A stretch of 56,899 nucleotides of DNA from a virus (taxonomy: Duplodnaviria; Caudoviricetes): the IMG/VR virus record IMGVR_UViG_3300031673_009818, positions 1 to 56,899 of that record. One strand, written 5' to 3'. The position numbers were made by a program, and so were the translations under genes. Of this stretch, positions 762 to 56,736 are shown piece after piece (position 1 is the first letter of the stretch; every line of letters starts with the position of its first letter). The notes beneath the pieces are model-generated. The model was not told the DNA's origin. It did not search any database and saw only the letters and a list, made by a program, of their open reading frames with translations.

Positions 762-782
762 GAACTAATAAATGATAATCTT

Positions 783-1517
783 ATGAAAATTTATTTGAGA
801 GATAAAAATTACAATTGGAAAGCTCATGATTATGATAATTTATCAGAGCTTAATACTATTTTTGAAATAAATAAAATTTCAATCGGGAATTCTGCGACAA
901 TCGGAGATTCTGCGAAAATCGGGAATTCTGCGACAATCGGAGATTTCGCGACAATCGGGAATTCTGCGACAATCGGGAATTCTGCGACAATCGGGAATTC
1001 TGCGAAAATCGGTTATTTCGCGACAATCGGGAATTCTGCGACAATCGGAGATTCTGCGACAATCGGAGATTTTGCGACAATCGGAGATTTTGCGAAAATC
1101 GGGAATTCTGCGAAAATCGGAGATTCTGCGACAATCGGAGATTCTGCGACAATCGGTTATTTCGCGACAATCGGAGATTCTGCGACAATCGGTTATTTCG
1201 CGACAATCGGAGATTCTGCGAAAATCGGAGATTCTGCGAAAATCGGAGATTTTGCGAAAATCGGAGATTCTGCGAAAATCGGAGATTTTGCGAAAATCGG
1301 TAATAAAATAGAATTAATTACAGGATTATACATTAGTGGATCGAAGCATCCTTTAACATATACAGGAAATAAAACTATTTCAATTGGATGTCGCAACATG
1401 ACAATTGAAAAATGGTTATATAAAGGACTTGAAATAGCTAAATATGAAAATTATAGTGATAAGCAAATTGAAGAATACAAAATTTATTTGGAATTAGCTG
1501 ATAAATTTAGCAATTAA
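783..1517 (+). CDS. Hexapeptide-repeat (left-handed beta-helix) protein
   Basis: 23 tandem IG(N/D/Y)(S/F)A(T/K) units. Confidence 0.85.
   Translation: MKIYLRDKNYNWKAHDYDNLSELNTIFEINKISIGNSATIGDSAKIGNSATIGDFATIGNSATIGNSATIGNSAKIGYFATIGNSATIGDSATIGDFATIGDFAKIGNSAKIGDSATIGDSATIGYFATIGDSATIGYFATIGDSAKIGDSAKIGDFAKIGDSAKIGDFAKIGNKIELITGLYISGSKHPLTYTGNKTISIGCRNMTIEKWLYKGLEIAKYENYSDKQIEEYKIYLELADKFSN
882..1295 (+). repeat. Coding 18-bp tandem repeat x23
   Basis: ATCGGNNATT(C/T)NGCGA(C/A)A units in frame. Confidence 0.95.
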
Positions 1518-1980: not shown

Positions 1981-2003
1981 TGAAATGGTAAAAATATAAT
2001 CTT

Positions 2004-2156
2004 ATGAATAAAAAGAATGACGTACACATTAACGGGAATGATCTTATCGATTATCTTGAAAATGAAAAAAACAATGCTCCTGAACGAGCTGTAATCGACA
2101 AGATAATTAAGAAAATTAAGGCAATGATGGATAAATATTACAATCTAAAATTATGA
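2004..2156 (+). CDS. 50-aa hypothetical protein (below ORF-track cutoff)
   Basis: MNKKNDVHINGNDLIDYLE...; first ORF after promoter; ATGA overlap with next gene. Confidence 0.7.
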   Translation: MNKKNDVHINGNDLIDYLENEKNNAPERAVIDKIIKKIKAMMDKYYNLKL

Positions 2157-3495: not shown

Positions 3496-3510
3496 CATAA
3501 AAACAATCTT

Positions 3511-3675
3511 ATGCTATCAGAACATCATAAAAATAACCTAGTCCTACAAAAAGAACTGGAAGAAAAAGAAGATTTGAGCATTCCTGAAATAAAAACATTA
3601 GATGCCCTGCAAAATCAAATCAACGATTATATAAAAAGATATTTGAGTAAAAATTCATTAAGTATTGTGAAATGA
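3511..3675 (+). CDS. Hypothetical protein (ATG 3511 preferred over TTG 3451)
   Basis: Preceded by AAAACAATCTT; the upstream TTG lies inside the repeat element. Confidence 0.65.
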   Translation: MLSEHHKNNLVLQKELEEKEDLSIPEIKTLDALQNQINDYIKRYLSKNSLSIVK

Positions 3676-8465: not shown

Positions 8466-8507
8466 TTAATCAGGCCATGCTTTAAGTATGGCCTAAAAAA
8501 AAATCTT

Positions 8508-8993
8508 ATGAAAAATAAAATAGAGAAAATAAAGGAATTCATTACTAGTGCGAAAATAGATAAAAGAAAACCTTATAAAACTTATAATGACGAAGTGAAG
8601 AGAAAACCAATTTTTGCAGTTTCATCAAATCACACTGTTAATGAGCATGTTTGTGAAAATTGCAATAATTTTGGTCATAAACACAAAACATGCCACAAAC
8701 ACAACATGACAGTTACAAGCGGAAGCTGGTGTAATCATTTTGATTCATTTAAACAAAATTTCAGAACAATAACAATCCTATCTGGCCCGCCAGAAAGTGG
8801 AAAAACTACAGAATCTATCAAAATGGTAGGAAGTCGAAAATACCAGACTATTAACGGACTTGATCATTTTAAAATTAATTCAGGTACTGAAGTACTAATT
8901 TTTGAAGAAATTATCACCATGAAACAAATTAAACAAATAATAAAAGCCGACTTACCAATTAAGGAAATCATAATTTGTATACAAACTTTATAA
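8508..8993 (+). CDS. Hypothetical protein, Cys/His cluster plus minimal P-loop-like C-terminus
   Basis: CENC...C...C; ILSGPPESGKTT; LIFEE. Confidence 0.6.
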   Translation: MKNKIEKIKEFITSAKIDKRKPYKTYNDEVKRKPIFAVSSNHTVNEHVCENCNNFGHKHKTCHKHNMTVTSGSWCNHFDSFKQNFRTITILSGPPESGKTTESIKMVGSRKYQTINGLDHFKINSGTEVLIFEEIITMKQIKQIIKADLPIKEIIICIQTL

Positions 8994-11102: not shown

Positions 11103-11272
11103 AAAAACATTAAGCACCGCCTAGATTAACGATCCTTGTCCGGATGTACTAGTTTTAATGCCTTGTATAGGTTAGAAGTGAGGCGGTGGAGGCTAATACC
11201 CCTTTCATAGACACTTCGTAATTAATTCAGGACTGACCCCGATAATTCGGGTTAATCTTAAAAAATAATCTT

Positions 11273-11488
11273 ATGGAAAAAATAAAAATAATAAACTTAA
11301 AATTAAGCGATTCACCTGAAATTGCAATTGAAAAAACAGTTGTATTATTTGAAATAGTTGACCAATCACCAATTCAAAAATGGAATTTGTGGCATGAATC
11401 AAATAAACAAAAAACAATTAAATTAAAAGAAAAATTAACATGCAAAAAACTTATTGAATTAGGTTATTTGTGCAATCTTAAAAAATAA
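11273..11488 (+). CDS. Hypothetical protein
   Basis: ORF with AATCTTATG start. Confidence 0.65.
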   Translation: MEKIKIINLKLSDSPEIAIEKTVVLFEIVDQSPIQKWNLWHESNKQKTIKLKEKLTCKKLIELGYLCNLKK

Positions 11489-11492
11489 TCTT

Positions 11493-11726
11493 ATGAATTT
11501 TAATTTTGATAATTTCAGAAAACAAACAGTTGAATATTTCAATGAAATAGTTGATATAATCAACAGTTCTAATAATGAAGATGGTAATTTAATCATTCAG
11601 GATATTGATTCTTTGAATGATGCAATGAAAGGTTTGAGACAAAAAATAGTTATATTGACTTGTATTGAAGATGAAAAAGAAAATATACATTGTTTAAATA
11701 TTGATGTTAAAAAAATAAAAATTTAA
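11493..11726 (+). CDS. Hypothetical protein
   Basis: ORF with AATCTTATG start. Confidence 0.65.
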   Translation: MNFNFDNFRKQTVEYFNEIVDIINSSNNEDGNLIIQDIDSLNDAMKGLRQKIVILTCIEDEKENIHCLNIDVKKIKI

Positions 11727-18524: not shown

Positions 18525-18770
18525 ATGTACGACTCACAAAAAAAATACCGTTCCGACCGTCTCCAAAACTTCAAACAAATATGGTTACCTATTTTAAAAA
18601 TGGAATTTGAAGTAACTGAGCGTGAAAATGGTTCTATTACATTTGAGGTTTTAGGATATGGAATAATTGATTTTTTCCCAAAAGCAAATAATTTGCTTAT
18701 TCGAAAAGACAGTAAATGGAAAAAGCCTGGTTTAAAATGGCTTATTGAAAATATAATTGATAAATTATAA
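18525..18770 (+). CDS. Hypothetical protein
   Basis: ATG ORF. Confidence 0.65.
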   Translation: MYDSQKKYRSDRLQNFKQIWLPILKMEFEVTERENGSITFEVLGYGIIDFFPKANNLLIRKDSKWKKPGLKWLIENIIDKL

Positions 18771-18774
18771 TCTT

Positions 18775-19185
18775 ATGGAAACAAAATTTCATAAACAATT
18801 AACAGAAATAGCCCCCAAGGTTATGGATATTTTTTGCAAGGCATATGGGTACACTTTGTATAATGGTCAATATTATTGCAATTATCTTATTGAGGCAACT
18901 AAGCCCAAAGCAGACTATGTTCCAATTATTAGCAGAATTATAAGTTTACAAAATAATTATGATTCTGACTTAGAACATTTTAAGCTAAAGATAGATGCTA
19001 TAATTAATCATTTAGAAGCAAATAATTATCGGTTTGCCTCTTTAATTCATGATGATGAACACTACGTAATAAGAGTATTTAAAAAATCAGAAGAATTAGG
19101 TCAAACCAAATCTATTAATTATTTTGATGAATTATATCAACATGGTTGTTTAATCGCGCTTAAAGATTTGGAGGCTACATTATGA
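18775..19185 (+). CDS. Hypothetical protein
   Basis: ATG 18775 with AATCTTATG context, in frame with track ORF. Confidence 0.65.
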   Translation: METKFHKQLTEIAPKVMDIFCKAYGYTLYNGQYYCNYLIEATKPKADYVPIISRIISLQNNYDSDLEHFKLKIDAIINHLEANNYRFASLIHDDEHYVIRVFKKSEELGQTKSINYFDELYQHGCLIALKDLEATL

Positions 19186-40606: not shown

Positions 40607-40610
40607 AATA

Positions 40611-41753: not shown

Positions 41754-41771
41754 CTTTTTAAATTTTTAAGA

Positions 41772-42251: not shown

Positions 42252-42253
42252 GA

Positions 42254-43228
42254 TTATTTATTTTTTTCGATTATATCATTAACTCCGGTAATTTCATCCA
42301 ATTCAGACAAAGCATCTTCTTTTTCCTTATTTTCTTTGCTAACTGTCTGCTTTGCAGGAATAATAGCATCTTCACTTCCAGCTTCTAAATCATCAACTTT
42401 TTTAGTGTTGAATTTCTTTTCCATGAAATACTCAACATCTTTGATGTTTAACTTTTCGCCTGATTTAATAAGCTCATTTGCTTTTTCAAGGTCATATTTT
42501 CCATAATCCATTATTTCAGCAACTCTTTCTTTTTCAGATGTTTTTCCAAGTGCCAAAATTGAATTATAAACCTCTGGATTTCCAGTCAATAATTGACTAG
42601 CTGTAATATCTTTTATATCCATATCATTTTTTGTTTTTACGTTATCTTGTTTTTTTAATCCGTATTTTTCAGCTATATGTTGCGGTATTTGATAGCCTAT
42701 TTCATTTGTGGTCAGTAATGTGTTTGATTTTCCATCTAAAAGGTCATAAACTTCATCAAATAAGCCAAAATGTTTGGCATCTTTTCCGGTGAACCAAACA
42801 TTTACTATATTTTCGCCTTCGGCCAGCATGACAGTTTTTAAATTATGTCCTGTCCTTTTCTGAAACTTTTCTTCATCGATTTTTTTTGCGAGTGCATTAT
42901 AAAGGAATTCATTTGTATGCTTCATTTTAGCATCCCCACCGCCACTTGCAGCATGTAACATTACATCACTTTGAGCGGCCCCCCTCACTTTATCAAAAAA
43001 TGGCAACATGACAGTGCCCATTGAAGCAACTATTCCGGTTACATTTGCCGTTAATTCATTTTCTTTATTATTCAAAAAATCAACAAATTGTTGACCTGCC
43101 CAAACGGAACCGCCCATGCTGTTCCATGAAATTTCAGCATCCTCACCAACTGATTCAATTTCTTTAATCAATTCGTTAATCGAATATGAACCTATGTAAT
43201 ACGGTAAGTCTGTATTTATTTTTTTCAT
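42254..43228 (-). CDS. Clp-type prohead protease/scaffold
   Basis: NSMGGSV; GIVASMG; MLH; WFTGKDAKHFGLFDEV; ATG 43228 preferred. Confidence 0.85.
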   Translation of the reverse strand: MKKINTDLPYYIGSYSINELIKEIESVGEDAEISWNSMGGSVWAGQQFVDFLNNKENELTANVTGIVASMGTVMLPFFDKVRGAAQSDVMLHAASGGGDAKMKHTNEFLYNALAKKIDEEKFQKRTGHNLKTVMLAEGENIVNVWFTGKDAKHFGLFDEVYDLLDGKSNTLLTTNEIGYQIPQHIAEKYGLKKQDNVKTKNDMDIKDITASQLLTGNPEVYNSILALGKTSEKERVAEIMDYGKYDLEKANELIKSGEKLNIKDVEYFMEKKFNTKKVDDLEAGSEDAIIPAKQTVSKENKEKEDALSELDEITGVNDIIEKNK

Positions 43229-43236
43229 AAGTGTAT

Positions 43237-43269
43237 AAAAAAACCCTTCTCTGAAAATCAAAGAAGGGT
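43237..43269 (-). terminator. Terminator-like hairpin in the leader of the head operon
   Basis: ACCCTTCTTTGA-TTT-TCAGAGAAGGGT-T6, 8 nt before ATG. Confidence 0.7.
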
Positions 43270-43298
43270 GAACCTCGCTACATGAATTTAATTAAACG

Positions 43299-43329
43299 CT
43301 AAATTACAACTATTTTATTAATTAGCAAA
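43299..43329 (-). promoter_or_regulatory. Putative head-operon promoter
   Basis: TTTG-N19-TAATTTAG (one mismatch). Confidence 0.55.
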
Positions 43330-43368
43330 AAAATAGTAAATTATTTAAAATAACAACTCACAATATAC

Positions 43369-43529
43369 TGATAATTAGATTGTTACATCCATGTATCAAC
43401 AAAGAAACAACTAATAACAACTAATATCAATTAATGTTCTGACAATCAACATATTACATGTCTGTTAGAATGCAATGTAATATTTTTACTGTATAATTGT
43501 ACATTATATTGCAAGGAAATTGAGTTAAA
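43369..43529 (+). repeat. Dispersed 161-bp element, copy 4
   Basis: Gapless alignment; same orientation as copies 1-3 although flanking genes are - strand. Confidence 0.88.
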
Positions 43530-43683
43530 CATCTAATAATTGCGGTTCGGGCAAATTTTCTTTCTCCACCACAACCACCATCTTTTTACACTTAGGACAA
43601 ATTTTCCTAATCACCCCTACAAACTCACCTTCAAATAAAATAGGCTGCCTACACTCACTATTGTCACATCGGTATTTTTTCAT
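43525..43683 (-). CDS. Mu Com-like zinc-ribbon protein
   Basis: YRCDNSECRQPILFEGEFVGVIRKICPKCKK. Confidence 0.65.
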   Translation of the reverse strand: MKKYRCDNSECRQPILFEGEFVGVIRKICPKCKKMVVVVEKENLPEPQLLDV

Positions 43684-45334
43684 CTTTTTCCGGATGTAAA
43701 TCTTTTGGAATTTGACTTGCTTCATTGGCAACCTGGGTTAAGACACCTTCATAGTCACCTCCACTAACAGCATTTATAATATTTTCGAAAGTATTATAAG
43801 GTATTAATTCCCTATACTTTTCAGGTACCTGCTCTTTAAGTGATTTGATAAATTTTAGTGGATCTATTGGTTTTAATTTTGTTCCTTCAAAAGAACTATT
43901 GGTAATTGCCTGAATTGTAATAATATCATCATCATTGTAAGCTTTCAATAATGGCGGGCAATCAATACCTCCTTTTAAAACTTGCAAATAAATAAACATA
44001 TCGAACACCTTCTTATATAACTGATTTGCTGGTATTAATTCGGTCAAAACATCTAAAACAAACTGAAAGTCAGACCTTGCACCCATCGAAGCCGTATAAT
44101 TTGAATTATAAGAACTAATTAAAACTTCATAAGGCTGGCCAATTGCAGCGGATAAGGTTTGCATTGTGCTTTTTAAATAATCGCCCTGGTCGCTTTGCGA
44201 ATTTGGGTTTAAAATTTTCGCTTTGACCCCTTTTGGCAGGTCCATTACAATACCATTTCCATTGAGCTTAAATTCGGCTGCATTTGCACTCATAGCAACC
44301 TCTGCGTCAGTTGCACATTCTGCACTTTCGAGAGGTGCACCCATATTTAAAGAGCTTAACGAATTATCATTAAATACTTTCTCAACTGTACTGTTTTGAT
44401 CTTTTTCATAAGCAAAAACCATTTGTGAAAGTAATTGGGCGTTTTTTGAATTGGCAATCAAATAATCATTGACATGTTTCAGTGTTTCAAAAATATGACT
44501 AATCAAAGGCATCGAACGGGTTTCGCCTTGCTTTTGCAAATCAGATTGCTTATACAACCAAGCAGACCTTATTTTTGTTCCAGGAAAAAAAGCACTTATT
44601 CGCTTTGTACCAAAATCTAAATTTTTAGGTTCCGGAGTGAAAACACCGTTTGAAATATCAGTTTGGATTAAAATATGATAGGCAACTACTTCGTTCTTAT
44701 CATTAAATTCCACACCTTCATTAACACTATTTCCTTTTTGCACCTCATCATTGGTAAGTATAGGATTAGTTACGCATTGACCACTTATAACCTGAATGTT
44801 TGGAAATCCGTTTTTAATTCTCATCAATAAAAGTACATCACCATCACCACAAGCATTGAAATCTGTATGCCTTGATATTTCATGCAAATTTTTTTCACCT
44901 GAATAATCAGAAAGTAATGTTTTTGCAAAATTCCTAAATAAATATTCGGTGTCCTGTATAAATTTTCTTTGTTTTTCTTTTCCAATTTCTTCACTGCCAT
45001 AATAATCAATAAATGGTTTCTCAAAAGGCCTGGAATTAAAAAGTAAACCGGAACCTATTTGCCAGTTGACCCTTTTTTGAACCATCAAACCTGCAAGGTG
45101 GTTTTTTAGTAGAAATTCCCAACTTCGAACCCTTAACTGTTCATAATCAATTATTATTTCTTTAGGAACTCCAAGTTCATTAATTGTATTTTCACCAGTA
45201 AATAATTGATAATTAATAGCATATCTACCCAATAAATTAGTCAATTCAGCATTTTCAGAACTTAATTTATGTGTTTTTTCCTGCAAATCTTGATTTACCG
45301 ATGATATTTTTTCGATTGTTTTTTTACCAAACAT
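43664..45334 (-). CDS. Portal protein (lambda family)
   Basis: LRVRS..L..N; IGSGL; DGDVL; EGVEFN; GETRSMP; IGQPYEVL; NYTAS. Confidence 0.88.
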   Translation of the reverse strand: MFGKKTIEKISSVNQDLQEKTHKLSSENAELTNLLGRYAINYQLFTGENTINELGVPKEIIIDYEQLRVRSWEFLLKNHLAGLMVQKRVNWQIGSGLLFNSRPFEKPFIDYYGSEEIGKEKQRKFIQDTEYLFRNFAKTLLSDYSGEKNLHEISRHTDFNACGDGDVLLLMRIKNGFPNIQVISGQCVTNPILTNDEVQKGNSVNEGVEFNDKNEVVAYHILIQTDISNGVFTPEPKNLDFGTKRISAFFPGTKIRSAWLYKQSDLQKQGETRSMPLISHIFETLKHVNDYLIANSKNAQLLSQMVFAYEKDQNSTVEKVFNDNSLSSLNMGAPLESAECATDAEVAMSANAAEFKLNGNGIVMDLPKGVKAKILNPNSQSDQGDYLKSTMQTLSAAIGQPYEVLISSYNSNYTASMGARSDFQFVLDVLTELIPANQLYKKVFDMFIYLQVLKGGIDCPPLLKAYNDDDIITIQAITNSSFEGTKLKPIDPLKFIKSLKEQVPEKYRELIPYNTFENIINAVSGGDYEGVLTQVANEASQIPKDLHPEKDEKIPM

Positions 45335-45335
45335 A

Positions 45336-45590
45336 TTAACAGTTTTTTACTTTTATAAAATAACCCCTGCCTAATTTTGCATCAATGTTTGCAATTTGCT
45401 CATTTATGTATTTCTTCATTTTAATTAATTCGTCAAGTGACTGGGTTTCTGCCTGATGAGTTGTTTCCTGATTTGAATAGGTGTATCTTTTGTTTTTTTG
45501 CTTAATTATGGCTAATATTTGAGCATTTATTGCAGATAATTGCTCAACCAAATCAGCCCTTTCTTGTGTTAATTCCTCAGTTGTTGCCAT
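45336..45590 (-). CDS. Head completion protein (gpW-like)
   Basis: Small helix-hairpin-helix ORF directly before portal. Confidence 0.65.
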   Translation of the reverse strand: MATTEELTQERADLVEQLSAINAQILAIIKQKNKRYTYSNQETTHQAETQSLDELIKMKKYINEQIANIDAKLGRGYFIKVKNC

Positions 45591-45605
45591 ATATAATTAT
45601 ATTAA

Positions 45606-45636
45606 TTTACAAATATACAAAAAATTACTATATTTG
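45606..45636. promoter_or_regulatory. Overlapping divergent promoters
   Basis: TATATTTG on - (45617-45610, toward gpW) and on + (45629-45636, with TTTA 19 nt upstream). Confidence 0.7.
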
Positions 45637-45639
45637 TGG

Positions 45640-45697
45640 TTCATAAGATTGTTTTACCATTTATTACCCGGCCCTGTACTCAGCAGGGCTTTTTTTT
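45640..45697 (+). ncRNA. Candidate ~57-nt trans-antisense sRNA (sRNA1)
   Basis: Promoter, then TTCATAAGATTGTTTTACCATTT, then GCCCTG-N7-CAGGGC-T8; seed is the reverse complement of early-gene start regions. Confidence 0.7.
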
Positions 45698-45747
45698 GTT
45701 AAAAAATGTTAAATAGTTACATTGTGTTGTTTTTTGTTGTATCTTTG
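45697..45747 (+). promoter_or_regulatory. Island promoter (copy 1) with direct-repeat motifs
   Basis: TGTTAAA x2, TGTTGT-N4-TGTTGT, TATCTTTG; near-copy at 51360-51411. Confidence 0.75.
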
Positions 45748-45770
45748 TAGTGTAATTAAAAAACAAACTT

Positions 45771-45920
45771 ATGAAAACAAGCAACGAAAAAATAAAGAGC
45801 CTTGATAAGGCAATAAGTAGCATGGCTTTGAGAATTGAAGAAATACAAAAACAAAATGAAAAAATAACCTCGCTAATCAAAAACCAAACCTATGAAACCA
45901 TTAAAAAATTTAAATATTAA
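45771..45920 (+). CDS. 49-aa hypothetical protein
   Basis: First ATG ORF after promoter; a second short ORF follows at 45892-46023. Confidence 0.5.
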   Translation: MKTSNEKIKSLDKAISSMALRIEEIQKQNEKITSLIKNQTYETIKKFKY

Positions 45921-46023
45921 AGAAAAAATGAAGCTTATCGATGAATTAAATCGAAAGCTGAAACATGCACTTTTAGAGTTGATAAGAAAAATAAATGAAA
46001 CAAGTAAATTAATTAAAAAATAA

Positions 46024-46095
46024 CCCACTACTCCAAGGAAACCGATGGGGGCATTAACAAAAAAATAATGGCAGGTTCGATTCCTGATAGTGGGG
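46024..46095 (+). ncRNA. tRNA-like RNA with aberrant anticodon loop
   Basis: CCCACTA/TAGTGGG acceptor; CAGG-TTCGATT-CCTG T-arm; CATTA-ACAAAAAAA-TAATG arm. Confidence 0.55.
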
Positions 46096-46206
46096 CAAAA
46101 TAAAAACCACAGTTTTAACTTTAAAAAATTGAAAGGAGTAGATTTAACAACTAAAAATCACTGATTAAAATTAATCCTGAGTAGTATTAATTTAAAAAAG
46201 TGATAA

Positions 46207-46632
46207 ATGAATAAAGTAATTTATACTGATAAATGGGTAACTATTTATCTGGTAAACGGATTCAATAAATTATGGCTTGAATTTAAATGGAATGACATGA
46301 GTATTCCTCTTGATAACTTAATAGAAGCACACACAAGGGCAATAGAGGTTGCCGTTGCCAATAGCATAAAAACCTTTATGGCTCGTTTAGAAAATACAAA
46401 AAAGGGTACAGAATTATCAGAAGCTTGTCTCACTTGGTGGGGCACGATTTGGGTAAAAGTGCTGGTATCAAAAGGCGTAAAGAGAATTATAAGCATTCAT
46501 AAAAAACAGGACAAAATTGAATGGGCTATGGATAAGCAAAAGGCAAGATCCTGGGAGACACCATCAAAAAATGCAGGAATCGAAGGTTTTGACCTTGATG
46601 ATTACAACGAAAGCTGGAAAGGCATAGTTTAA
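46207..46632 (+). CDS. Hypothetical protein (possible SpoIIAA/STAS-like fold)
   Basis: 141-aa alpha/beta pattern; weak recognition. Confidence 0.55.
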   Translation: MNKVIYTDKWVTIYLVNGFNKLWLEFKWNDMSIPLDNLIEAHTRAIEVAVANSIKTFMARLENTKKGTELSEACLTWWGTIWVKVLVSKGVKRIISIHKKQDKIEWAMDKQKARSWETPSKNAGIEGFDLDDYNESWKGIV

Positions 46633-46700
46633 CTCAAAAACGTAAATAACCAATATAACCTAACCTATTTTTTAAATTTTTAAATTAAATAAAAAAAAGA

Positions 46701-46907
46701 ATGGGTTTAAATAACATATTAAAAAAATACTTCAATATTGCTGATCAAGTTAAAAATATTACTATAAAATTAACTAATACAGTAAATCAGTACAGTGAAT
46801 TGCTTGACAAACATGAAGAAATTCATAGAGAAACACTTAGAAAGTGGGAAAACGCCAAAAAAGAACTTGAAAGTCAAGAATATGGTGGTATAAATTACAA
46901 AAAATAA
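46701..46907 (+). CDS. Hypothetical protein
   Basis: ATG ORF. Confidence 0.55.
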   Translation: MGLNNILKKYFNIADQVKNITIKLTNTVNQYSELLDKHEEIHRETLRKWENAKKELESQEYGGINYKK

Positions 46908-46910
46908 GCT

Positions 46911-47099
46911 ATGGAAACAGAATTTTTAATAATAATTTTGGCTATAATATTAATAATTATTTCTTTTATTATGGGCTGCAAAATTGGAAAACTTAAGGCC
47001 GACAAGGCCTTCGAAAGTGAGATGTTAAAGGTTATAGATAAGGTTCATTGTGAAACAAATACTCTTATCAATAATTACGAAAAAAGCAAAGAACTCTAA
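46911..47099 (+). CDS. Small single-TM protein
   Basis: N-terminal hydrophobic helix. Confidence 0.6.
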   Translation: METEFLIIILAIILIIISFIMGCKIGKLKADKAFESEMLKVIDKVHCETNTLINNYEKSKEL

Positions 47100-47148
47100 A
47101 AAAATACTTATCGACCAAGCCGTTTTTCAACTAAAAAAAACGGACAAA

Positions 47149-47277
47149 ATGGAAGAAACAACAAAATGCCCCGTTTGTGGCGACGAAGTAGAACAAGATT
47201 CAATAATAGTTTATTGCAAAAATTGTGGATTTAACATAAGAAAAAAAGAAAACGACCCTAAACCAAAATCCTCTTAA
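47149..47277 (+). CDS. Small zinc-ribbon protein
   Basis: CPVCG...CKNCG. Confidence 0.55.
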   Translation: MEETTKCPVCGDEVEQDSIIVYCKNCGFNIRKKENDPKPKSS

Positions 47278-47594
47278 TTAATTAAATTCAGCATATGAAG
47301 TTTAGAATTATTTTAAAAACGTTTGATTTGTCTGCAAAATCGGAGAAATCAATTAAAAAAGTAATCAAAAAAACAGAGAAAAATGACAAAAAGAAGAAAA
47401 GCAGGCATGCGCATGCGAGCACACAGACAGCATAAGCTAATAATACGCAGAAAGTAATTAACCAGGCCACACATAGATGTGGCCTAAAAAAAACAAAATG
47501 AAAAAAATAAATACAATATTAAGAATCACATCCATATTAATAGTTATATCTATCTTATCAATAGCAGCATTTATAAGAAAAATATTTGAATTAA

Positions 47595-47882
47595 TCATGT
47601 GCCTTGTTCATAAACCTTAACGAAAACAGGTTCACCAGGCGCGTTCCTTCCATCAGCAAAAATAACATACGCCCAAAAAGCCCACGTTCCAGGTGCGTCC
47701 AATTCAGCGTCCAGAAATTCATAATATAAATCTTCGGTGCCTGAAATTATTGCCTCCCAATAATCTATTGTTTCATCAGGTTTTTTGTAACCTATTCTCA
47801 CAGTTGGTGCACCTGTTAATACTACACCTGTTTGCAATGTTAGCTTTAGATTACTTTGATTTACGTATATTTTGCCGTTCAT
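47595..47882 (-). CDS. Small Ig-like/BppU-N-like structural protein
   Basis: YKKPD...W.A...LYY...ELDAPGTW...YV.FADG...PGEP. Confidence 0.6.
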   Translation of the reverse strand: MNGKIYVNQSNLKLTLQTGVVLTGAPTVRIGYKKPDETIDYWEAIISGTEDLYYEFLDAELDAPGTWAFWAYVIFADGRNAPGEPVFVKVYEQGT

Positions 47883-47895
47883 TTTTTTTTTGGTG

Positions 47896-48110
47896 TTAAA
47901 TTGTTATAGTCCATCCATTTCCAATCAAATTATTATAAACTGTGTCACTTGCCGCTGTTCTTGCTGTATTTGCGCGTTCGCTGTGAACGCAAACATTAGT
48001 AATATTGTTATTAATTTTTTCATAAATTTAACCCTCCTGAGATTGGCACGTTTGATAAATCCAGCATTCCTGTTAAATTACAGCTATTTATAGTAATGGA
48101 TTTAATATTT
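47896..48110 (-). pseudogene. Mosaic of gene remnants
   Basis: LRR-like fragment, signal-peptide start at 48023 and an out-of-frame C-terminus ARTAASDTVYNNLIGNGWTITI*. Confidence 0.5.
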
Positions 48111-48127
48111 ACGTTCTAGTATTTATT

Positions 48128-50266
48128 TTATATTAGATTTATTTCATTTCTAATTGCATTTATATATGGGTCATTTTTTAATAACGTCCATTCTATCCTA
48201 TGAAACAATCCAGGTATTTCATAATCTGAAAATGTTTTTCCTAATGATGTTAGAATCCCTTCCCCTGTTTGTGAATTAGCTTTCCCACTATCTGTACTTC
48301 CATACACAACAATTGTTTTTTTAGTTCCAACTCTATCTATTCTTATATCCGCTCCTGTTGGGGTGTAAGTTCCACCATCCATATGAGAATGAGGTATATA
48401 ACATTTCCATAATGCTGCAATTGTATCATTCCAACATCCTATATAATGAACACCAATCGCACCTCTTGAAAATCCGCAAAGAGATACATTATTTGAATCT
48501 GCATTATAAGTTGATAGCACTTGTGTTAATATATTTTGCCATAGTGTTACTGTTGCACTTGGATCGTCAGTTGGATTACCATTTCCCCACCAGCTATTTA
48601 ACATTGCTGTTCCTGCTGTATTTATGCAAGGTACTTGAACAACTATAAAATTACCTTTTGTTAGTCCAAATCCTAACATCGGATCGTTTGGTAGACCTGT
48701 ATGCCCTAAAAATATATTTCCAGGAATATCAAATATAACTTTATGAGGTGTTCCCGTTGATGAATAATTTTTCGGTAAATATACAGAGTACCATATATTT
48801 GCATCATATTGTATCTTAATTCTTTTATCTGGTATTGCCCCTCCCAGTTCAATCTCAGGATTAATAATCCCATTTGTCTTATTTAATACACTCAATAGCT
48901 CATTTGTAAATTTTTGAAAATAAAATACATGAAGGTTATTTGTAAACTTTTTACCTATCCAAACAAAAGATAGTTTTCTATCTGAATAAGTAAAACCCCC
49001 TATCCCATCTGATACTGCATGAATTAGTATATTCGCACTAAAAACTGCTTGAGAGGTCAAATTAGCACCCATCTCAACTACACCATTTTTATATATAGTT
49101 GTAGTTGTTCCATTTTTCCATGCAGTGTATAATCCTGTGCTGATATACTCTGCAAAAATAGTAGTAGATCCATCTGTTAGTAGTGCAGCTTTACAATATG
49201 AATTTGCTGCATCTTTTGCAGACAAATAACATTTATGAGTTGCATCCTGATAATTTCCAACATCACCTACTCCGCTTATAGAATCAGTCATACTACTCAA
49301 TGCAATTGATAGGTCTGTTGCTGATAATGTATTGATATTGATATGTGTGTCTATATATCCCCCAGCACTAACAGATCCTATATTATCTCTTGTGATACTT
49401 CCCACATCGGTTAATCTATACGCCCCATCGCTATCAACAGGATTAAACAGGTTGTATTTCTGGCTATCATAAGTAGTACCATATAGCAAATAACATGCGG
49501 TTGCTTGTGATGTAATTTTATATAAATCCATCATATTAAACCACTTATCAATATACTGTCTATGTAATTCGGTAATAGTAACTACTGCTTTATAAGCCGT
49601 TGTCTTAGGGTTTTCAGACTCAGTATAATGATATAATTGGGTAATCTCCTCTACGGATAAAAATCTATTGTAAATATACACATCATCTATAATGGTTGCG
49701 TCTGGGTATGCAGCAGTTTTATTTATTGTTAGTGTATCGGTTTTAGCCCCTAAGTTAGATAATGTACCTGAATATTTTAATACTTTATCAATATAAATCT
49801 CGTAATTTTTAGCTGCATTTATTTGAATTGTGACAAATTGCCAAACATTATCAGTTATTTCTGCGACTGAACTAAGATAATCATAACCAGAACCTACCCT
49901 CCCTATAAAAACTTTATTAAAATACGAGCCAAAATATAATCCGCCTGTTGCGTCAAACTTAAAAGCTGTATACTGCCCACTTCCAACAGGCTTTTTAAGC
50001 CAAAAATTAAAAGATAAAGTAGACTCGTTGAAATTATTATCTAAGGTTATGTATTGTGCAGAATTATATGTATAAGCACTACTGATAGCCCCAAATTGAT
50101 TAGTGGTTAATGTTGCCCCTGTTACTGTTCCATTGTGACCATTGCCACTTAAATCATTTGCGTTACCATTGAATAAATAATAAGCAACTGGATTTGCTGG
50201 TAAAATATATTTTACAGGGGGATACACTTCCCCTATTAATCCCCTATTTGCTAGTAATAAACTCAT
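48128..50266 (-). CDS. LamG/ConA-like lectin domains fused to a C-terminal alpha/beta hydrolase
   Basis: AYYLFNGNANDLSGNGHNGT...IDDVYIYNRFLSVEEITQLY; GFSRG nucleophile elbow; distal D and H. Confidence 0.8.
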   Translation of the reverse strand: MSLLLANRGLIGEVYPPVKYILPANPVAYYLFNGNANDLSGNGHNGTVTGATLTTNQFGAISSAYTYNSAQYITLDNNFNESTLSFNFWLKKPVGSGQYTAFKFDATGGLYFGSYFNKVFIGRVGSGYDYLSSVAEITDNVWQFVTIQINAAKNYEIYIDKVLKYSGTLSNLGAKTDTLTINKTAAYPDATIIDDVYIYNRFLSVEEITQLYHYTESENPKTTAYKAVVTITELHRQYIDKWFNMMDLYKITSQATACYLLYGTTYDSQKYNLFNPVDSDGAYRLTDVGSITRDNIGSVSAGGYIDTHININTLSATDLSIALSSMTDSISGVGDVGNYQDATHKCYLSAKDAANSYCKAALLTDGSTTIFAEYISTGLYTAWKNGTTTTIYKNGVVEMGANLTSQAVFSANILIHAVSDGIGGFTYSDRKLSFVWIGKKFTNNLHVFYFQKFTNELLSVLNKTNGIINPEIELGGAIPDKRIKIQYDANIWYSVYLPKNYSSTGTPHKVIFDIPGNIFLGHTGLPNDPMLGFGLTKGNFIVVQVPCINTAGTAMLNSWWGNGNPTDDPSATVTLWQNILTQVLSTYNADSNNVSLCGFSRGAIGVHYIGCWNDTIAALWKCYIPHSHMDGGTYTPTGADIRIDRVGTKKTIVVYGSTDSGKANSQTGEGILTSLGKTFSDYEIPGLFHRIEWTLLKNDPYINAIRNEINLI

Positions 50267-50278
50267 ATTATTTATTTT

Positions 50279-51088: not shown

Positions 51089-51099
51089 TTCTATTAATT

Positions 51100-51318: not shown

Positions 51319-51359
51319 TAATCTACAAATATACAAAAAAAAAGAATAAGTAATAAAAA

Positions 51360-51411: not shown

Positions 51412-51415
51412 TACT

Positions 51416-54008: not shown

Positions 54009-54010
54009 CA

Positions 54011-56116
54011 TTAACTCAACAAAACCCCATTCTCTAGCGCCGCTTCAATAATCAACTTACAAGCATTTTCCCAACTAGGTTTAATTACCTGGCTTTTATA
54101 AACTGCTTTTTTATAAGGATTTGAATTTGAGCAAATCAAATCAATCATAAAAATACGACAAAAAACACCATAAATATTAACGTCCCAAAAGTGATTTTGA
54201 ATACCAGTTTTCTTTTTCTCCCAAAGGTACTTATCAACTCCGCCCTCAACTTTTTTTACAATTTTACTTTCAGATTCAAAATGAGCAAAATAATTTCTAT
54301 ATGTATATTTATTTATTTCAGTATCATATTCTGGATAGTTCATAAAATGTTCGTCCTGATGTAATTGTCCTGAATCATCAATGTAACTATTTGAATCTAT
54401 GTATTTTGAAACCCAATCTTTTACAACATTTACGTTTAATAAATAAAACCCCCCAGTTGAACTAGTCCGATAAATATTACCAAAATCAGTTTTAGTTTGA
54501 ACAATGAATTTTTCAGGATCTTCGCCCTTAACACCTATACACAAAATACCCTTTTGCCTCATTCGCCTAACAAATTCTAATGCATAGTCCTGAAAAGCCC
54601 CAATATCAACAGCTATAATAGTTAATTGTTTTTCATGTTTTCCAAATTTTTGCATTACAATTTTCTCAAATTCAGTCCAAATACTGTCCATTACATCAAA
54701 CCTATAAGTCATTTTTGTACGTTCAACTTCAAGTTTACCAGTATTAATACCTTCTTTTTCTAGTGCCAATCGTTCAATTTTTGGAATGAAAGTACCAATA
54801 CTTCCAGCATCTATACTGTAAGTTGGCCCCTTAGCTGAATGCCCAATTAATTCATAATCCAAACGCCCATCGTTCTCATATCCGTTCAAGTCACATGCCA
54901 GACTAATAATCATAATTTCACCATTACCATCTTTTTTTGATAACTCAAACGGACATTCACCAATTTTATAATCCCTTCTATTTTGCTGTAATTTTGTGGA
55001 TTTTATTTTTATTCCTTCTGGTTTGTAGGGCTTTCCTTCTATTGAATTTGTAAAACTCTGTATTTCAGAATCACTCTTAACGCCTCCACGGGGCCATGCT
55101 GCCTGATATTCTTTTGCAAAATCATACCAGTTATCCATAGTTAGAGGTGCATATAATGCCGAAATCCTATAACTTACAAATCGTTTGTCTTCTCGCTCAA
55201 TTGTCGGTTTCCAAATGCCATTATTAAGCATTTCATATTTATGTTTTTTTTCCTGAAAATCATTTTCGCATTTTCCACAACGGTATCTTACACTTTTTTC
55301 AATGACCTCATCATTTCGAACATCAAATATAACTCCATATCTCGTATTATTTTCATTCCTTTCATTCCATACCAGCTCAATATATTCACCACATTTCGGA
55401 CACGGAACATAATATACGTTTTGATTTCCACGCAAATAAAGCTTATAAATCAAACTGCTATCCAAAAGTAAAGGTGAACTGATATAAAATATTTTCTTTG
55501 AGTCCCCAAAACTTCTAGTCCTATCTTCCATCAACTTCAAAAAACTACCTGAATCTTTTGAAATACCTTTGAAAGCGTCCAATTCGTCGGCAATAACTGA
55601 TCCAGCAGTTACCTGCCTCATATTAGTTGCACTTTGCCCACCAAAATTGAAAAGCTCAAACCCTCCGGAGAAAAACTTTTGTTGCATAGTGTCACCTTTT
55701 GAATTTGATTGAACCCCTGAACCTTTTCCAAGCAAGTGCCTTATATCACAACCATCTATACCATCATCCACGCCCTTCATTGTTTTTGTTGCTAACGTAT
55801 CATTAGCGGATAATAGCATAATATTCGTAGGTCGTTCACTCATAACATAAGGAACTCCATTATGAACTATACAAAAAGTGCCCCCGGTTCGAACCCCCTT
55901 CATTAATGTAACGTGAGTAACGGGATCATACGGGCTTAAGTGCTCAACTATTTGACGCATATAAGGCGTATTTTTCCAATCGAATTGACCAAACATTCTT
56001 TCAGACACATGCCTTTGCACATATCTTTTTTGTTCAATATATTCTGATGGGCCTAATTCCTTTTCATCAAAATTTAATATTGAAGATGAATAAATTTGTT
56101 TTATTGAATTTACCAT
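54011..56116 (-). CDS. terL: Terminase large subunit (lambda GpA family)
   Basis: TPYMRQI; MKGVRTGGT; ADELDAF; ISSP; YYVPCPKCG; CGKC; SALYAP; NHFWD. Confidence 0.93.
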   Translation of the reverse strand: MVNSIKQIYSSSILNFDEKELGPSEYIEQKRYVQRHVSERMFGQFDWKNTPYMRQIVEHLSPYDPVTHVTLMKGVRTGGTFCIVHNGVPYVMSERPTNIMLLSANDTLATKTMKGVDDGIDGCDIRHLLGKGSGVQSNSKGDTMQQKFFSGGFELFNFGGQSATNMRQVTAGSVIADELDAFKGISKDSGSFLKLMEDRTRSFGDSKKIFYISSPLLLDSSLIYKLYLRGNQNVYYVPCPKCGEYIELVWNERNENNTRYGVIFDVRNDEVIEKSVRYRCGKCENDFQEKKHKYEMLNNGIWKPTIEREDKRFVSYRISALYAPLTMDNWYDFAKEYQAAWPRGGVKSDSEIQSFTNSIEGKPYKPEGIKIKSTKLQQNRRDYKIGECPFELSKKDGNGEIMIISLACDLNGYENDGRLDYELIGHSAKGPTYSIDAGSIGTFIPKIERLALEKEGINTGKLEVERTKMTYRFDVMDSIWTEFEKIVMQKFGKHEKQLTIIAVDIGAFQDYALEFVRRMRQKGILCIGVKGEDPEKFIVQTKTDFGNIYRTSSTGGFYLLNVNVVKDWVSKYIDSNSYIDDSGQLHQDEHFMNYPEYDTEINKYTYRNYFAHFESESKIVKKVEGGVDKYLWEKKKTGIQNHFWDVNIYGVFCRIFMIDLICSNSNPYKKAVYKSQVIKPSWENACKLIIEAALENGVLLS

Positions 56117-56736
56117 TTATTTAATAACGCGTAATCCTCCGCATGCTTAATTGCTTCGGGTTCTTGTTTTTTTATTCCCAATTTTAAAACTTCATTAAAT
56201 CCATGTTTGAATTTTTTCTTAAATCTTAGTTTGGTTTCAATATCTGCATCAAGTTCATTACATATTTGTTCGATTATTGAATTACCAAAATTTACAGTTT
56301 CGCCAAATATGCCCCTTATATTTCGACCACTCCACTCAATTATGAAATCCAAAGGCAATACCTTTGCTTTCTTTTTTAATAGTTCAATTTTCTTTAGTTC
56401 AGTATCAGCTTCTATTCTTTTTGTTTCTCGGTGTTTTTTTATTCCATCGATGGTATTGAATTTAAGTGAGTCAATATCTATTGATTCAAAATCGGATAGG
56501 TCTTGTGTTTCTTTTTTTGGTTTTGGTCTTGGTGAATTTGGGTTTACTTCTCTTTTCTGTATTTCGCGTTTTGGACGAATCATATTTTTTGCTATCCAGG
56601 CCTTATTAATCGGATGGTCTGTATCTATTTTTTTATATTCTTCTATTAGTTGCTTCCTGCCTACATATATGCCCACGTATTGAGATGATTTCCCAATTAA
56701 ATCAGCTACTTGTTTTCTTGTTTGAAGATTTGCCAT
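56110..56736 (-). CDS. terS: Terminase small subunit
   Basis: N-terminal HTH (TRKQVADLIGKSSQYV), coiled coil, overlaps terL start; TACCTTTG box at 56773-56766. Confidence 0.75.
   Translation of the reverse strand: MANLQTRKQVADLIGKSSQYVGIYVGRKQLIEEYKKIDTDHPINKAWIAKNMIRPKREIQKREVNPNSPRPKPKKETQDLSDFESIDIDSLKFNTIDGIKKHRETKRIEADTELKKIELLKKKAKVLPLDFIIEWSGRNIRGIFGETVNFGNSIIEQICNELDADIETKLRFKKKFKHGFNEVLKLGIKKQEPEAIKHAEDYALLNKW

What the first reader, a model, noticed from the sequence alone, without database searches (positions are those of the whole stretch)
45606..45697. Candidate master antisense sRNA targeting a start-codon motif shared by many early genes
Seen: a compact unit of promoter (TATATTTG 45629-36), TTCATAAGATTGTTTTACCATTT, and terminator (GCCCTG/CAGGGC-T8). 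Its reverse complement AAATGGTAAAACAATCTTATGAA matches the gene-2004 leader (AAATGGTAAAA-atat-AATCTTATGAA, 11+11 nt) and gene 3511 (AAAACAATCTTATG, 14 nt). The core AATCTTATG spans the ATG of genes at 783, 2004, 3511, 8508, 11273, 11493 and 18775, and every + strand copy I spotted is a start codon. The promoter overlaps the divergent gpW/portal promoter. Inference: one ~57-nt RNA occludes initiation of a dispersed early regulon, giving an early-to-late switch or RNA-based immunity in a phage with no visible repressor. This suits SD-less Bacteroidota initiation.
Basis: partly seen in the sequence, partly recalled or inferred. Interest (0 to 1): 0.88.

Follow-up and report, generated by a model that had tools for sequence, protein, structure and literature searches.

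The report
Candidate antisense small RNA in phage
A phage of Bacteroidota-type bacteria carries a tiny promoter-to-terminator unit whose roughly 55-base RNA would be complementary to the start regions of several of the phage's own early genes; this is a plausible RNA switch, but no transcript or repression has been shown.

Summary
AATCTTATG occurs 8 times against 1.39 expected. All 7 + strand copies sit on the ATG of an ORF in the early block, 783-18775. The only - strand copy lies at 45642-45650, between a full Bacteroidota-type promoter (TTTA-19 nt-TATATTTG, 45606-45636) and a strong + strand-only terminator (45670-45697).

Points for the RNA reading:
- The predicted RNA has an unstructured 5' end of about 29 nt.
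- That end is complementary to the whole 5' UTR of gene 2004 in two blocks of 11 nt, and to the gene-783 leader (11+9).
- It also matches the 3511 start (14), the 45771 start (15 of 16) and the terminase start (13).
- The unit looks like an insert. A paralogous divergent-promoter region at 51.3 kb lacks it.
- It marks the left edge of an 8.4 kb insertion between terminase and gpW.

Points against or untested:
- Only one 96.8% identical relative carries the unit, so covariation cannot be tested.
- Distant relatives lack both the unit and the motif.
- Read on the - strand, it resembles a hairpin + leader + ATG gene cassette and may be a relic.

My best reading is a trans-acting antisense sRNA of the GibS design, confidence about 0.45. 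The claims of a "master regulator" and of immunity go beyond the evidence.

The parts
45606..45636 (+). Promoter of the candidate sRNA. It has a -33-like TTTA (45606-09), a 19-nt spacer and the -7 box TATATTTG (45629-36).
   Evidence: The pattern TTT[GA]-19-TAnnTTTG has 6 hits in both strands of the window, 4 of them in the 8.8% non-coding DNA. CTATATTTGTG (45628-38) is identical to the gene-2004 promoter core at 1972-82. The sigma-70 scan also lists TTTACA-17-TATATT here, 10 of 12.
45610..45617 (-). The -7 box (TATATTTG on the - strand) of the divergent gpW-like/portal promoter. It lies inside the spacer of the sRNA promoter.
   Evidence: Relatives keep the same box in front of gpW. A 23-of-24 copy lies at 51317-51340.
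45641..45669 (+). Predicted single-stranded 5' region of the RNA. Block 1 (45640-50) is antisense to AATCTTATGAA. Block 2 (45652-65) is antisense to AAATGGTAAAA, TAATAAATG and AATAAATGGTAAA.
   Evidence: The fold shows no pairs in the first 29 nt. The start site is inferred from the spacing after the -7 box and has not been measured.
45670..45697 (+). Intrinsic terminator: an 8-pair stem with 5 G-C pairs, a 5-nt loop and T8. It works only on the + strand, because on the - strand no T run follows it.
   Evidence: hairpin in the MFE structure, -13.7 kcal/mol, z -2.64.
45597..45650 (-). The - strand copy of the leader family (AAAACAATCTTATG) with its 15-codon ORF. This is the basis of the relic-cassette rival.
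1983..2008 (+). Best predicted target: the whole 5' UTR and start of gene 2004. The ORF is 50 aa and comes first in an operon that runs to the primase at 4137-6290. Blocks are 1983-93 and 1998-2008.
   Evidence: Duplex energy is -25.5 kcal/mol, the best non-self site in the genome. Its promoter is TTTG 1950-53 with TATATTTG 1973-80. The primase is identified.
766..787 (+). Leader and start of gene 783, a hexapeptide-repeat acetyltransferase. Blocks are TAATAAATG (766-774) and AATCTTATGAA (777-787).
3500..3513 (+). Start region of ORF 3511. It has 14 contiguous complementary bases.
   Evidence: The true start is uncertain because of the upstream in-frame ATG at 3454.
8497..8512 (+). Start region of gene 8508 (VapE-like fragment). 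Complementary at 15 of 16 bases.
11262..11275 (+). Start region of gene 11273. Holds the 9-mer plus 4 more bases after one mismatch.
11482..11497 (+). Start region of gene 11493. Complementary at 15 of 16 bases.
18769..18777 (+). Start of gene 18775. Holds the 9-mer only.
45760..45775 (+). Start region of the next gene downstream (45771, 49 aa). Complementary at 15 of 16 bases. In a read-through transcript it would pair in cis with the 5' end.
56109..56121 (-). Start region of the large terminase. Complementary to block 2 at 13 of 13 bases. This may be chance.
   Evidence: (BLAST E 0.12).

Best explanation
The 45606-45697 unit is an independent small-RNA gene carried as an inserted module.

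Inferred steps:
- A host-type (Bacteroidota sigma-A) promoter starts transcription near 45641-45643, and the T8 terminator ends it. The product is an RNA of about 55 nt with a 5' single-stranded region of about 29 nt and one 3' hairpin.
- The 5' region base-pairs in trans with the short A-rich leaders and start codons of phage early mRNAs that carry the leader family TAAAAA..AATCTTATGAA.
- The strongest pairing is with the whole 5' UTR of gene 2004, the first gene of the operon that ends in the primase. The next strongest is with gene 783.
- Pairing over the AUG blocks 30S binding. This matters in a host whose ribosomes choose starts without Shine-Dalgarno pairing.
- The sRNA promoter is of the same class as the promoters of its two best targets. 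The likely logic is therefore a delayed negative feedback that damps early translation as the RNA accumulates, not a late-onset switch.

Shown: the sequence anatomy, the complementarity and its statistics, and the insert-like position.
Inferred: the transcript, its ends, the pairing in vivo and the repression.
For: 1. The promoter is a full match. It carries the same 8-nt -7 box as the promoters in front of genes 783, 2004, gpW and 51318. 5 of 15 TATATTTG copies lie in the 8.8% non-coding DNA, and the other four non-coding copies face genes. The 11-nt core is identical to the 2004 promoter.

2. The terminator is strong and works on the + strand only. There is no + strand gene upstream of it for 19 kb, because the - strand structural block spans 26137-45590. 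It therefore has nothing to terminate except a transcript that starts between 45591 and 45669. In relatives L015, L022 and L023, the hairpin at the matching place is preceded by an A run, which is the orientation that ends - strand transcripts.

3. The unit fills exactly the gap between two modules that lie 19 nt apart in the paralogous region at 51.3 kb. Relatives show that the + strand box is not part of the ancestral gpW promoter.

4. The 5' 29 nt are unpaired in both the MFE and the centroid fold.

5. Complementarity:
- 9 of 97 start regions have 9 or more contiguous bases, against 28 of 3448 tiles genome-wide and 0 of 97 in the sense-orientation control. The count is reached in 17 of 2000 shuffles.
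- A second block of 9 or more bases occurs in 2 of 7 motif genes (2004: 11; 783: 9) and in 0 of 89 other genes.
- The 2004 leader is the best non-self duplex in the genome, at -25.5 kcal/mol.
- Cofold binding energies run from -12.3 to -20.6 for 6 of 7 motif genes and -15.3 for 45771, against a median of -7.0.
- The match to 2004 starts at its predicted 5' end and ends 5 bases into the coding region.

6. This is the only non-coding place where antisense 11-mers of several start regions cluster.

7. The design matches GibS, the first trans-encoded Bacteroidetes sRNA. GibS has an AT-rich, unstructured, extended 5' seed that pairs around target start codons, plus an intrinsic terminator. In that study 9 of 11 tested intergenic candidates were confirmed by Northern blot (PMC7366714, passages read).

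8. The one relative keeps the promoter boxes, block 1 and the terminator unchanged.
Against: 1. There is no comparative support.
- Only one lineage, 96.8% identical, carries the unit. At that distance 2-3 changes per 92 nt are expected and 2 are seen, so there is no sign of constraint and no covariation.
- Its 2-nt deletion at 45660 shortens block 2. Pairing to a 2004-type leader would fall from 11 to 9 bases, and to a 783-type leader from 9 to 5, unless the unseen targets changed too.

2. Nine loci of more distant relatives lack the unit. The motif is not enriched in the five relatives' records I searched, with 0-2 copies each. This is a recent, lineage-specific feature.

3. Single matches are modest.
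- Score 15 is reached in 4 of 100 shuffles.
- Chance duplexes of -21 to -23.4 kcal/mol exist elsewhere in the genome.
- The duplexes are A/U-rich.

4. The targets share one leader family, so the multi-target statistics are not independent. They would also hold for any relic copy of that family.

5. Read on the - strand, the locus shows hairpin + A-rich leader + AATCTTATG. That is the same layout as in front of genes 8508 and 11273.

6. The -33 element is TTTA, not TTTG.

7. Co-expression with its targets weakens the 'switch' idea.
Confidence: 0.45

Rival explanations
1. Relic cassette. The - strand sequence is the stranded 5' end (hairpin, leader, ATG) of a gene cassette. It was left at the edge of the hyperplastic TerL-gpW insertion by recombination between repeated regulatory cassettes. 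The + strand promoter and terminator likenesses have no function, and no regulatory RNA acts.
For: - The - strand copy is a regular member of the leader family. It is closest to 3511 (14 bases) and 2004.
- The hairpin + leader + ATG layout recurs at 8508 and 11273.
- The region is an insertion hot spot. TerL and gpW are adjacent in 5 of 10 relatives' loci, inserts of 0.36-3.3 kb lie in 4, TerL is not in the tenth locus, and the window has 8.4 kb.
- The insertion is full of repeated PeSL-like cassettes.
- The ORF after the ATG is only 15 codons.
- The feature has no conservation depth.
Against: - It needs two independent coincidences on the + strand: an 8-of-8 -7 box with a correctly spaced -33-like element, and a T8 run right after the hairpin.
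- The other cassettes have no A run before their hairpins.
- No promoter box lies upstream on the - strand.
- The match to 2004 covers exactly the UTR and stops 5 bases into the coding region. A duplicated gene start need not stop there.
Confidence: 0.25
2. Promoter competition or insulation. The + strand promoter is real, but its role is at the DNA level. It overlaps the gpW/portal late promoter back to back, so RNA polymerase bound at one excludes the other. That would hold late genes down early in infection. The terminator merely stops this transcription before the next operon, and the RNA itself is a by-product.
For: - The - strand box (45610-17) lies inside the spacer of the + promoter. 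The two boxes form a 9-nt inverted repeat, 45609-17 and 45629-37, separated by 11 nt.
- The downstream operon has its own promoter module at 45725-45749, so the upstream promoter is not needed to express it.
Against: - It does not explain why the 23 nt between promoter and terminator are antisense to the 2004 UTR in two blocks.
- The paralogous late-type promoter at 51.3 kb works without such a partner.
Confidence: 0.15
3. Protein operator or initiation signal. AATCTTATG is read by a phage protein, such as a translational repressor or nuclease acting on early start regions as T4 RegA and RegB do, or it is a re-initiation signal. The copy at 45.6 kb plays no part, or serves at most as a decoy.
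For: - The motif is tied to the ATG whatever lies upstream: promoter, hairpin or the end of a gene.
- In 5 of 7 copies a T precedes it, giving TAA-TCTT-ATG. In three of these (2004 mini-ORF, 11493, 18775) the TAA ends an upstream ORF.
- T4 RegA binds an unstructured AU-rich site over the AUG of many early mRNAs, and RegB cuts a motif in early start regions (PMC3014915, passages read).
Against: - No scanned protein matched a translational repressor or RegB-like family. 66 of 97 predicted ORFs were scanned in at least one of Pfam and PHROGs, and most in only one.
- It leaves the + strand promoter and terminator around the antisense copy unexplained.
Confidence: 0.1

Closest known systems
GibS and other trans-encoded intergenic sRNAs of Bacteroides thetaiotaomicron (PMC7366714, passages read)
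   Same: Both have their own promoter with a TAnnTTTG-type box and an intrinsic terminator. Both have an AT-rich, unstructured, extended 5' seed that pairs across the start codon of target mRNAs in a host without Shine-Dalgarno-led initiation.
   Different: GibS is about 145 nt, chromosomal, conserved across Bacteroides and experimentally shown. This candidate is about 55 nt, phage-borne, found in one lineage, untested, and aimed at the phage's own genes.
Phage P1/P7 c4 antisense RNA and the P4 CI RNA (immunity RNAs; c4 as described in PMC12197685, passages read; the P4 details are recalled)
   Same: A small phage RNA that pairs in trans with the start region of phage mRNA to control development.
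   Different: From recall, c4 and CI are processed from the transcript they control, present their seeds in loops of a folded RNA, and belong to temperate elements. Here there is a separate promoter, a linear seed, dispersed targets and no sign of lysogeny. No Rfam family matched.
P22 sar and lambda OOP cis-antisense RNAs (PMC12197685, passages read)
   Same: Short phage RNAs of similar size, each with its own promoter and terminator, that repress phage mRNAs by pairing.
   Different: Those RNAs are transcribed opposite their single target at the same locus. Here the opposite strand holds no expressed gene, and the targets lie from 0.1 kb (45771) to about 45 kb away.
T4 RegA translational repressor and RegB endonuclease (PMC3014915, passages read)
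   Same: One factor acts on a sequence shared by the start regions of many early mRNAs to shut down early protein synthesis.
   Different: RegA and RegB are proteins. Here the proposed factor is an RNA, which would make it a functional analogue only.
PeSL promoter/stem-loop cassettes of T4-type phages (PMC2839356, PMC4122927; search listing and start of abstracts only)
   Same: Repeated regulatory cassettes at gene borders in hyperplastic regions. The window has such repeats at 52123, 52701 and 53681, and the unit sits at the edge of that region.
   Different: PeSLs are multi-copy recombination substrates that face the gene they precede. This unit is single-copy and carries the leader in antisense.

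Membership tests
Trans-encoded base-pairing sRNA gene | Own promoter upstream of a non-coding transcript | tested here: inconclusive
   There is a consensus match, TTTA-19-TATATTTG, and only 6 such sites occur in the genome. No start-site data could be obtained.
Trans-encoded base-pairing sRNA gene | Rho-independent terminator at the 3' end | tested here: met
   8-pair stem with 5 G-C pairs, followed by T8, on the + strand only.
Trans-encoded base-pairing sRNA gene | No protein-coding frame in the transcript | tested here: met
   There is no ATG-started ORF on the + strand within 45637-45697. Only TTG/GTG frames of 22 and 26 aa run through the terminator.
Trans-encoded base-pairing sRNA gene | Accessible seed complementary to target start regions | tested here: met
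   The first 29 nt are unpaired. 9 of 97 start regions have 9 or more contiguous bases. Two-block matches go to 2004 and 783.
Trans-encoded base-pairing sRNA gene | Detectable transcript of the predicted size | not testable with these tools
   No run on record as RNA holds the stretch. This is a blank, not evidence either way.
Trans-encoded base-pairing sRNA gene | Conservation or covariation of seed and targets in relatives | tested here: inconclusive
   One 96.8% identical relative keeps the unit, but its targets are not on the contig. Nine loci of more distant relatives lack the unit.
Any curated Rfam RNA family, including phage C4 antisense RNA | Covariance-model match at the gathering score | tested here: not met
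   There are 0 matches at gathering score in the whole window. At E up to 10 in 45550-45800, 10 weak matches appear, the best being Trp_leader at 23.4 bits against a cutoff of 41, and none is a phage antisense family. That C4 is an Rfam family is recalled, not checked.
Cis-antisense phage RNA (sar/OOP type) | Transcribed opposite an expressed target gene at the same locus | tested here: not met
   The opposite strand holds only a 15-codon ORF with no upstream promoter box. The divergent gpW transcript does not overlap it.
RegA-type translational operator | A phage-encoded RNA-binding repressor of that family | tested here: inconclusive
   No such family appeared among the 66 of 97 predicted ORFs scanned. 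31 ORFs were not scanned.
PeSL-like mobile regulatory cassette | Multi-copy promoter/stem-loop repeat at gene borders | tested here: not met
   The unit is single-copy in the window. Only its flanks are repeated (45601-24 and 45697-45767). Its CCCGGCCCTG core recurs once, at 7867.

The most novel reading that the evidence does not exclude
A virulent-looking Bacteroidota myophage has made an RNA counterpart of T4 RegA. A 55-nt sRNA arose when an early-gene leader was placed in antisense behind a copy of the early promoter and capped with a terminator. With one linear seed it binds a leader cassette shared by seven to nine dispersed genes: the primase operon, an acetyltransferase, several small early genes, the neighbouring gene 45771 and possibly the terminase. 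This times the shut-off of early translation in a host that has no Shine-Dalgarno recognition.
Probability: 0.2. Interest if true: 0.8.

Novelty: new variant of a known kind. Interest (0 to 1): 0.56.

Why it matters
Phage antisense RNAs are known, for example sar, OOP, c4, CI and STnc6030. Nearly all of them act on one adjacent target, and all come from Proteobacteria phages.

A separate sRNA gene that controls a dispersed set of the phage's own early genes through a shared start-codon cassette would be new in two ways:
- It would be the first RNA-based global post-transcriptional regulator in a phage.
- It would be the first regulatory RNA described for a Bacteroidota phage.

The host ribosomes ignore Shine-Dalgarno sequences, so occlusion of the AUG itself is the obvious point of control. 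The case also suggests a simple birth route for an sRNA: a leader inverted behind its own promoter.

The target leaders are only about 20 nt long and the seed is linear, so the hypothesis can be tested directly with reporters and compensatory mutations in Flavobacterium johnsoniae or Bacteroides.

Tried and rejected
- Expression. The run search listed 9 holders, none on record as RNA. This says nothing on expression.
- DNA contigs of runs X3-X6 laid on 43000-48000. They showed only two types. The window type has no change in the unit in X3, and X6 has two short pieces with 0 and 2 differences. The L006 type appears in X4, with the 2-nt deletion at 45660.
- Comparative searches. The sRNA core is found in IMG/VR only on the L006 contig. 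A two-block leader pattern gave that contig plus 5 unrelated chance hits.
- Portal-based searches gave 9 + 9 loci. Apart from the 13.8 kb contig (present in both lists as L007 and L016), none of the nine distinct relatives inspected has the unit.
- The 303-aa protein and the primase have no close IMG/VR relatives.
- The 18-nt leader pattern gave 27 single-copy chance hits in unrelated contigs.
- The genome-contig scan gave 7 chance hits. One is a Saprospiraceae gene start identical over 20 nt, in an unrelated GC-rich context.
- No analogous start-codon motif was seen in relatives G001-G005.
- INPHARED. There is no DNA match. The nearest cultured phages are Flavobacterium columnare phages, at 28% portal identity.
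- Rfam gave nothing.
- The ESM Atlas search on the 303-aa target-operon protein gave no usable hit.
- Rejected: the motif as a generic strong start context, because it has C at -3.
- Rejected: TAATAAATG as a second regulon motif, because only 1 of 8 copies is at a gene start.
- Rejected: cos or attP, and an invertible switch. No supporting repeats were seen by eye. I ran no inverted-repeat search.
- Paper supplements were not opened.
- Structure prediction, complex prediction, the RNA-model tools and the search of protein representatives were not used.
Full report
WHAT THE WINDOW IS. The window is a 56.9 kb IMG/VR virus record, rated 91% complete and linear, with about 32% G+C. It encodes a myovirus with lambda-like head genes:
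- portal, 43664-45334, phrog_21 E 1e-35
- head protease, 42254-43228
- major head protein, tail sheath and tape measure
- gpA-type large terminase, 54011-56116

The + strand block from 783 to about 19 kb holds replication and DNA-metabolism genes:
- Prim-Pol/VapE primase at 4137-6290
- a YqaJ-like domain, two methyltransferases, a helicase and an AntA-domain protein

Promoter boxes of the TTTG/TAnnTTTG kind fit a Bacteroidota host. I recalled this consensus, and it occurs as a term in PMC7366714 and PMC6847099 (listing). Two more results fit the same host: an Aureibaculum MAG is named among the portal relatives, and 79 of 140 tblastn records are Flavobacterium phages. I scanned 66 of 97 predicted ORFs in Pfam or PHROGs, most of them in one library only. 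None matched an integrase or a cI-type repressor. The nearest thing was a sub-threshold HTH_17 match at 9540-9803.

THE OBSERVATION. AATCTTATG occurs 8 times against 1.39 expected, and 0 of 100 shuffles reached 8. The seven + strand copies all end in the ATG of an ORF of 50-244 aa between 783 and 18775. Six are the first ATG of their frame; 3511 has an upstream ATG at 3454. One-mismatch copies are mostly not gene starts. Of 15, only 45771 and 40606 begin predicted genes.

The motif is the 3' end of a longer leader family, TAAAAA..AATCTTATGAA. Examples are 768-785 against 18760-18777 (17 of 18 identical) and the 22 nt shared by 11273 and 11493. It is not the usual strong context. In F. johnsoniae the positive determinants are A at -3, -6, -12 and -13 (PMC6847099, section 15). 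Here -3 is C, while -6 is A in all seven copies and -12/-13 are A in the leaders I read out (11273).

THE LOCUS. From left to right on the + strand:
- start of the gpW-like gene (CAT at 45588-90)
- its -7 box on the - strand (45610-17)
- a -33-like TTTA (45606-09), which with a 19-nt spacer and TATATTTG (45629-36) makes a + strand promoter
- 23 nt antisense to the leader family (45640-62)
- an 8-pair hairpin with T8 (45670-97)
- a 70-nt promoter module (45697-45767), repeated at 7786-7857 and 51360-51429
- gene 45771

The spacing TTTG-19-TATATTTG is exactly that of the duplicated promoters in front of genes 783 and 2004, at 610-640 and 1950-1980. These two are 97.5% identical over 40 nt. The relaxed pattern has only 6 hits in the window, 4 of them in non-coding DNA. 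The terminator works only on the + strand. No + strand gene lies upstream of it for 19 kb.

AN INSERTED MODULE. The divergent-promoter region at 51.3 kb is a paralogue. 51317-40 matches 45601-24 (23 of 24), and 51360-51410 matches 45697-45746 (92%). Only 19 nt lie between those pieces at 51.3 kb, against 72 nt at 45.6 kb. The extra 72 nt are the -7 box, the antisense stretch and the terminator.

Relatives give the wider picture. TerL and gpW are adjacent, 27-42 nt apart, in 5 of 10 loci. Inserts of 0.36-3.3 kb lie between them in 4 loci, and TerL is not in the tenth locus. The window has 8.4 kb there, and the unit is the left edge of that insertion. The insertion carries PeSL-like repeated cassettes.

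The 13.8 kb contig L006 is 96.8% identical over 43298-45759. It keeps the unit and the promoter module, then diverges. Its two changes are G45638A and a 2-nt deletion at 45660.

COMPLEMENTARITY. The predicted RNA from 45641 folds into one 3' hairpin with 29 unpaired 5' bases. Its matches are:
- the 2004 leader in two 11-nt blocks around a small loop, covering the UTR from its predicted 5' end to +5
- the 783 leader, 11+9
- 3511, 14 bases
- 8508 and 11493, 15 of 16 each
- 45771, 15 of 16
- the terminase start, 13 of 13

The promoter core CTATATTTGTG is the same as in front of 2004. The unit therefore reads as the 2004 promoter followed by the 2004 leader turned round.

The statistics are mixed:
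- The best single alignment score is reached in 4 of 100 shuffles.
- The 2004 site is the best non-self duplex (-25.5 kcal/mol), but chance sites reach -23.4.
- 9 of 97 start regions have 9 or more contiguous bases, against 0.8% of tiles genome-wide. The count is reached in 17 of 2000 seed shuffles.
- Second-block matches of 9 or more occur in 2 of 7 motif genes and in 0 of 89 others.

Because the targets share one leader family, these figures show that the locus holds an antisense copy of that family with extra likeness to 2004 and 783. They do not show that it acts.

WEIGHING. Three features must be explained together: a full promoter, a one-way terminator with nothing else to terminate, and an antisense leader that exactly fills the space between them.
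- An sRNA gene explains all three. It also matches the design of GibS in the same phylum.
- The relic reading explains the third feature and the lack of depth in relatives, but it needs the first two to be chance.
- The promoter-competition reading explains the first two but not the third.
- A protein acting on the motif remains possible for the motif itself, but it does not explain the locus.

I put the sRNA reading at 0.45, the relic at 0.25, promoter competition at 0.15, and a protein or signal reading with a silent locus at 0.10. Within the sRNA reading, control of 2004 is the firmest part, then 783. A regulon of seven or more genes has a probability of about 0.2 overall.

'Immunity' has no support, since there is no sign of lysogeny.

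LIMITS. I found no transcript data and no covariation. The host is unknown. The gene list is a crude ORF call of 95 ORFs of at least 40 aa plus 2 added, and it includes at least one spurious ORF over the tRNA. Start sites are inferred from spacing. Supplements of the cited papers were not opened.

Noticed in passing
window 610-761 and 1539-1580, 1950-1980: The promoter in front of gene 2004 (TTTG 1950-53, TATATTTG 1973-80) has a 97.5% identical 40-nt copy at 602-641. That copy is followed by about 80 nt holding a Shine-Dalgarno-like AGGAGG (683-688), a 3-codon mini-ORF (693-704) and a terminator (723-761), all before gene 783. The terminator is repeated at 1539-1580. This is a second promoter, short RNA and terminator arrangement in the same phage. 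It could be an attenuator or another small RNA.
   Followed up: partly
window 7786-7857, 45697-45767, 51360-51429: A promoter module of about 70 nt (..TGTTGTTTTTTGTTGTATCTTTGTAG..) occurs three times on the + strand. Weaker copies lie on the - strand at 26049-26070 and 9466-9487.
   Followed up: partly
window 7860-7894 and 45660-45689: ATTTATT followed by CCCGGCCCTG occurs only twice, at 7867 and 45667, both on the + strand, against 0.003 expected. This links the 5' half of the sRNA-unit terminator to the hairpin (7866-7890, then TTTT) between a promoter module and tRNA-Pro (7904-7978). The 3' halves differ. Unexplained.
   Followed up: partly
window 52123-52220, 52701-52798, 53681-53778, 53982-54007; also L016 near 830-900 of the extract: A PeSL-like repeated intergenic cassette. 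It has the hairpin GCCCCGACACCTCCCCAGGTTCGGGG, then TTGTGGTGGTAGAAGRTAGTATT and an A-rich leader in front of small + strand genes. The middle part may be a phage-specific promoter.
   Followed up: no
window 45600-54010; loci L008-L023: The terminase-gpW junction is an insertion hot spot. The genes are adjacent in 5 of 10 relatives' loci, 4 have inserts of 0.36-3.3 kb, and the window has 8.4 kb. The insert holds a 712-aa protein with a concanavalin-A-like lectin domain (48128-50266) behind a copy of the late promoter (51317-40).
   Followed up: partly
window 56109-56121 (-): The terminase start region (AATAAATGGTAAA) is complementary to 45653-45665 at 13 of 13 bases. This is a possible late target of the RNA or a chance match (BLAST E 0.12).
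   Followed up: partly
window 30382-31570 (-): Six near-identical coding repeats (..CAGTAAATGAAAATAATATTTTTG..) lie in two paralogous 391/395-aa proteins (phrog_22523), probably tail fibre-like.
   Followed up: no
window 45609-45637: A 9-nt inverted repeat, ACAAATATA and TATATTTGT, separated by 11 nt, is formed by the two back-to-back -7 boxes. It could also be a binding site for a dimeric regulator of the late promoter.
   Followed up: no
window 51405-51418: The real start of the 51359 ORF is probably the ATG at 51416, only 3 nt after the module's -7 box (TATCTTTA). That implies a leaderless or nearly leaderless mRNA. The - strand gene at 51318 likewise starts 7 nt after its box.
   Followed up: no
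L039 7509-7527 (Saprospiraceae MAG contig): A bacterial gene start is identical over 20 nt to the - strand leader copy (GGTAAAACAATCTTATGAAC). It sits in an unrelated GC-rich context and is probably chance, since 7 hits in 596 Gb is near expectation.
   Followed up: partly
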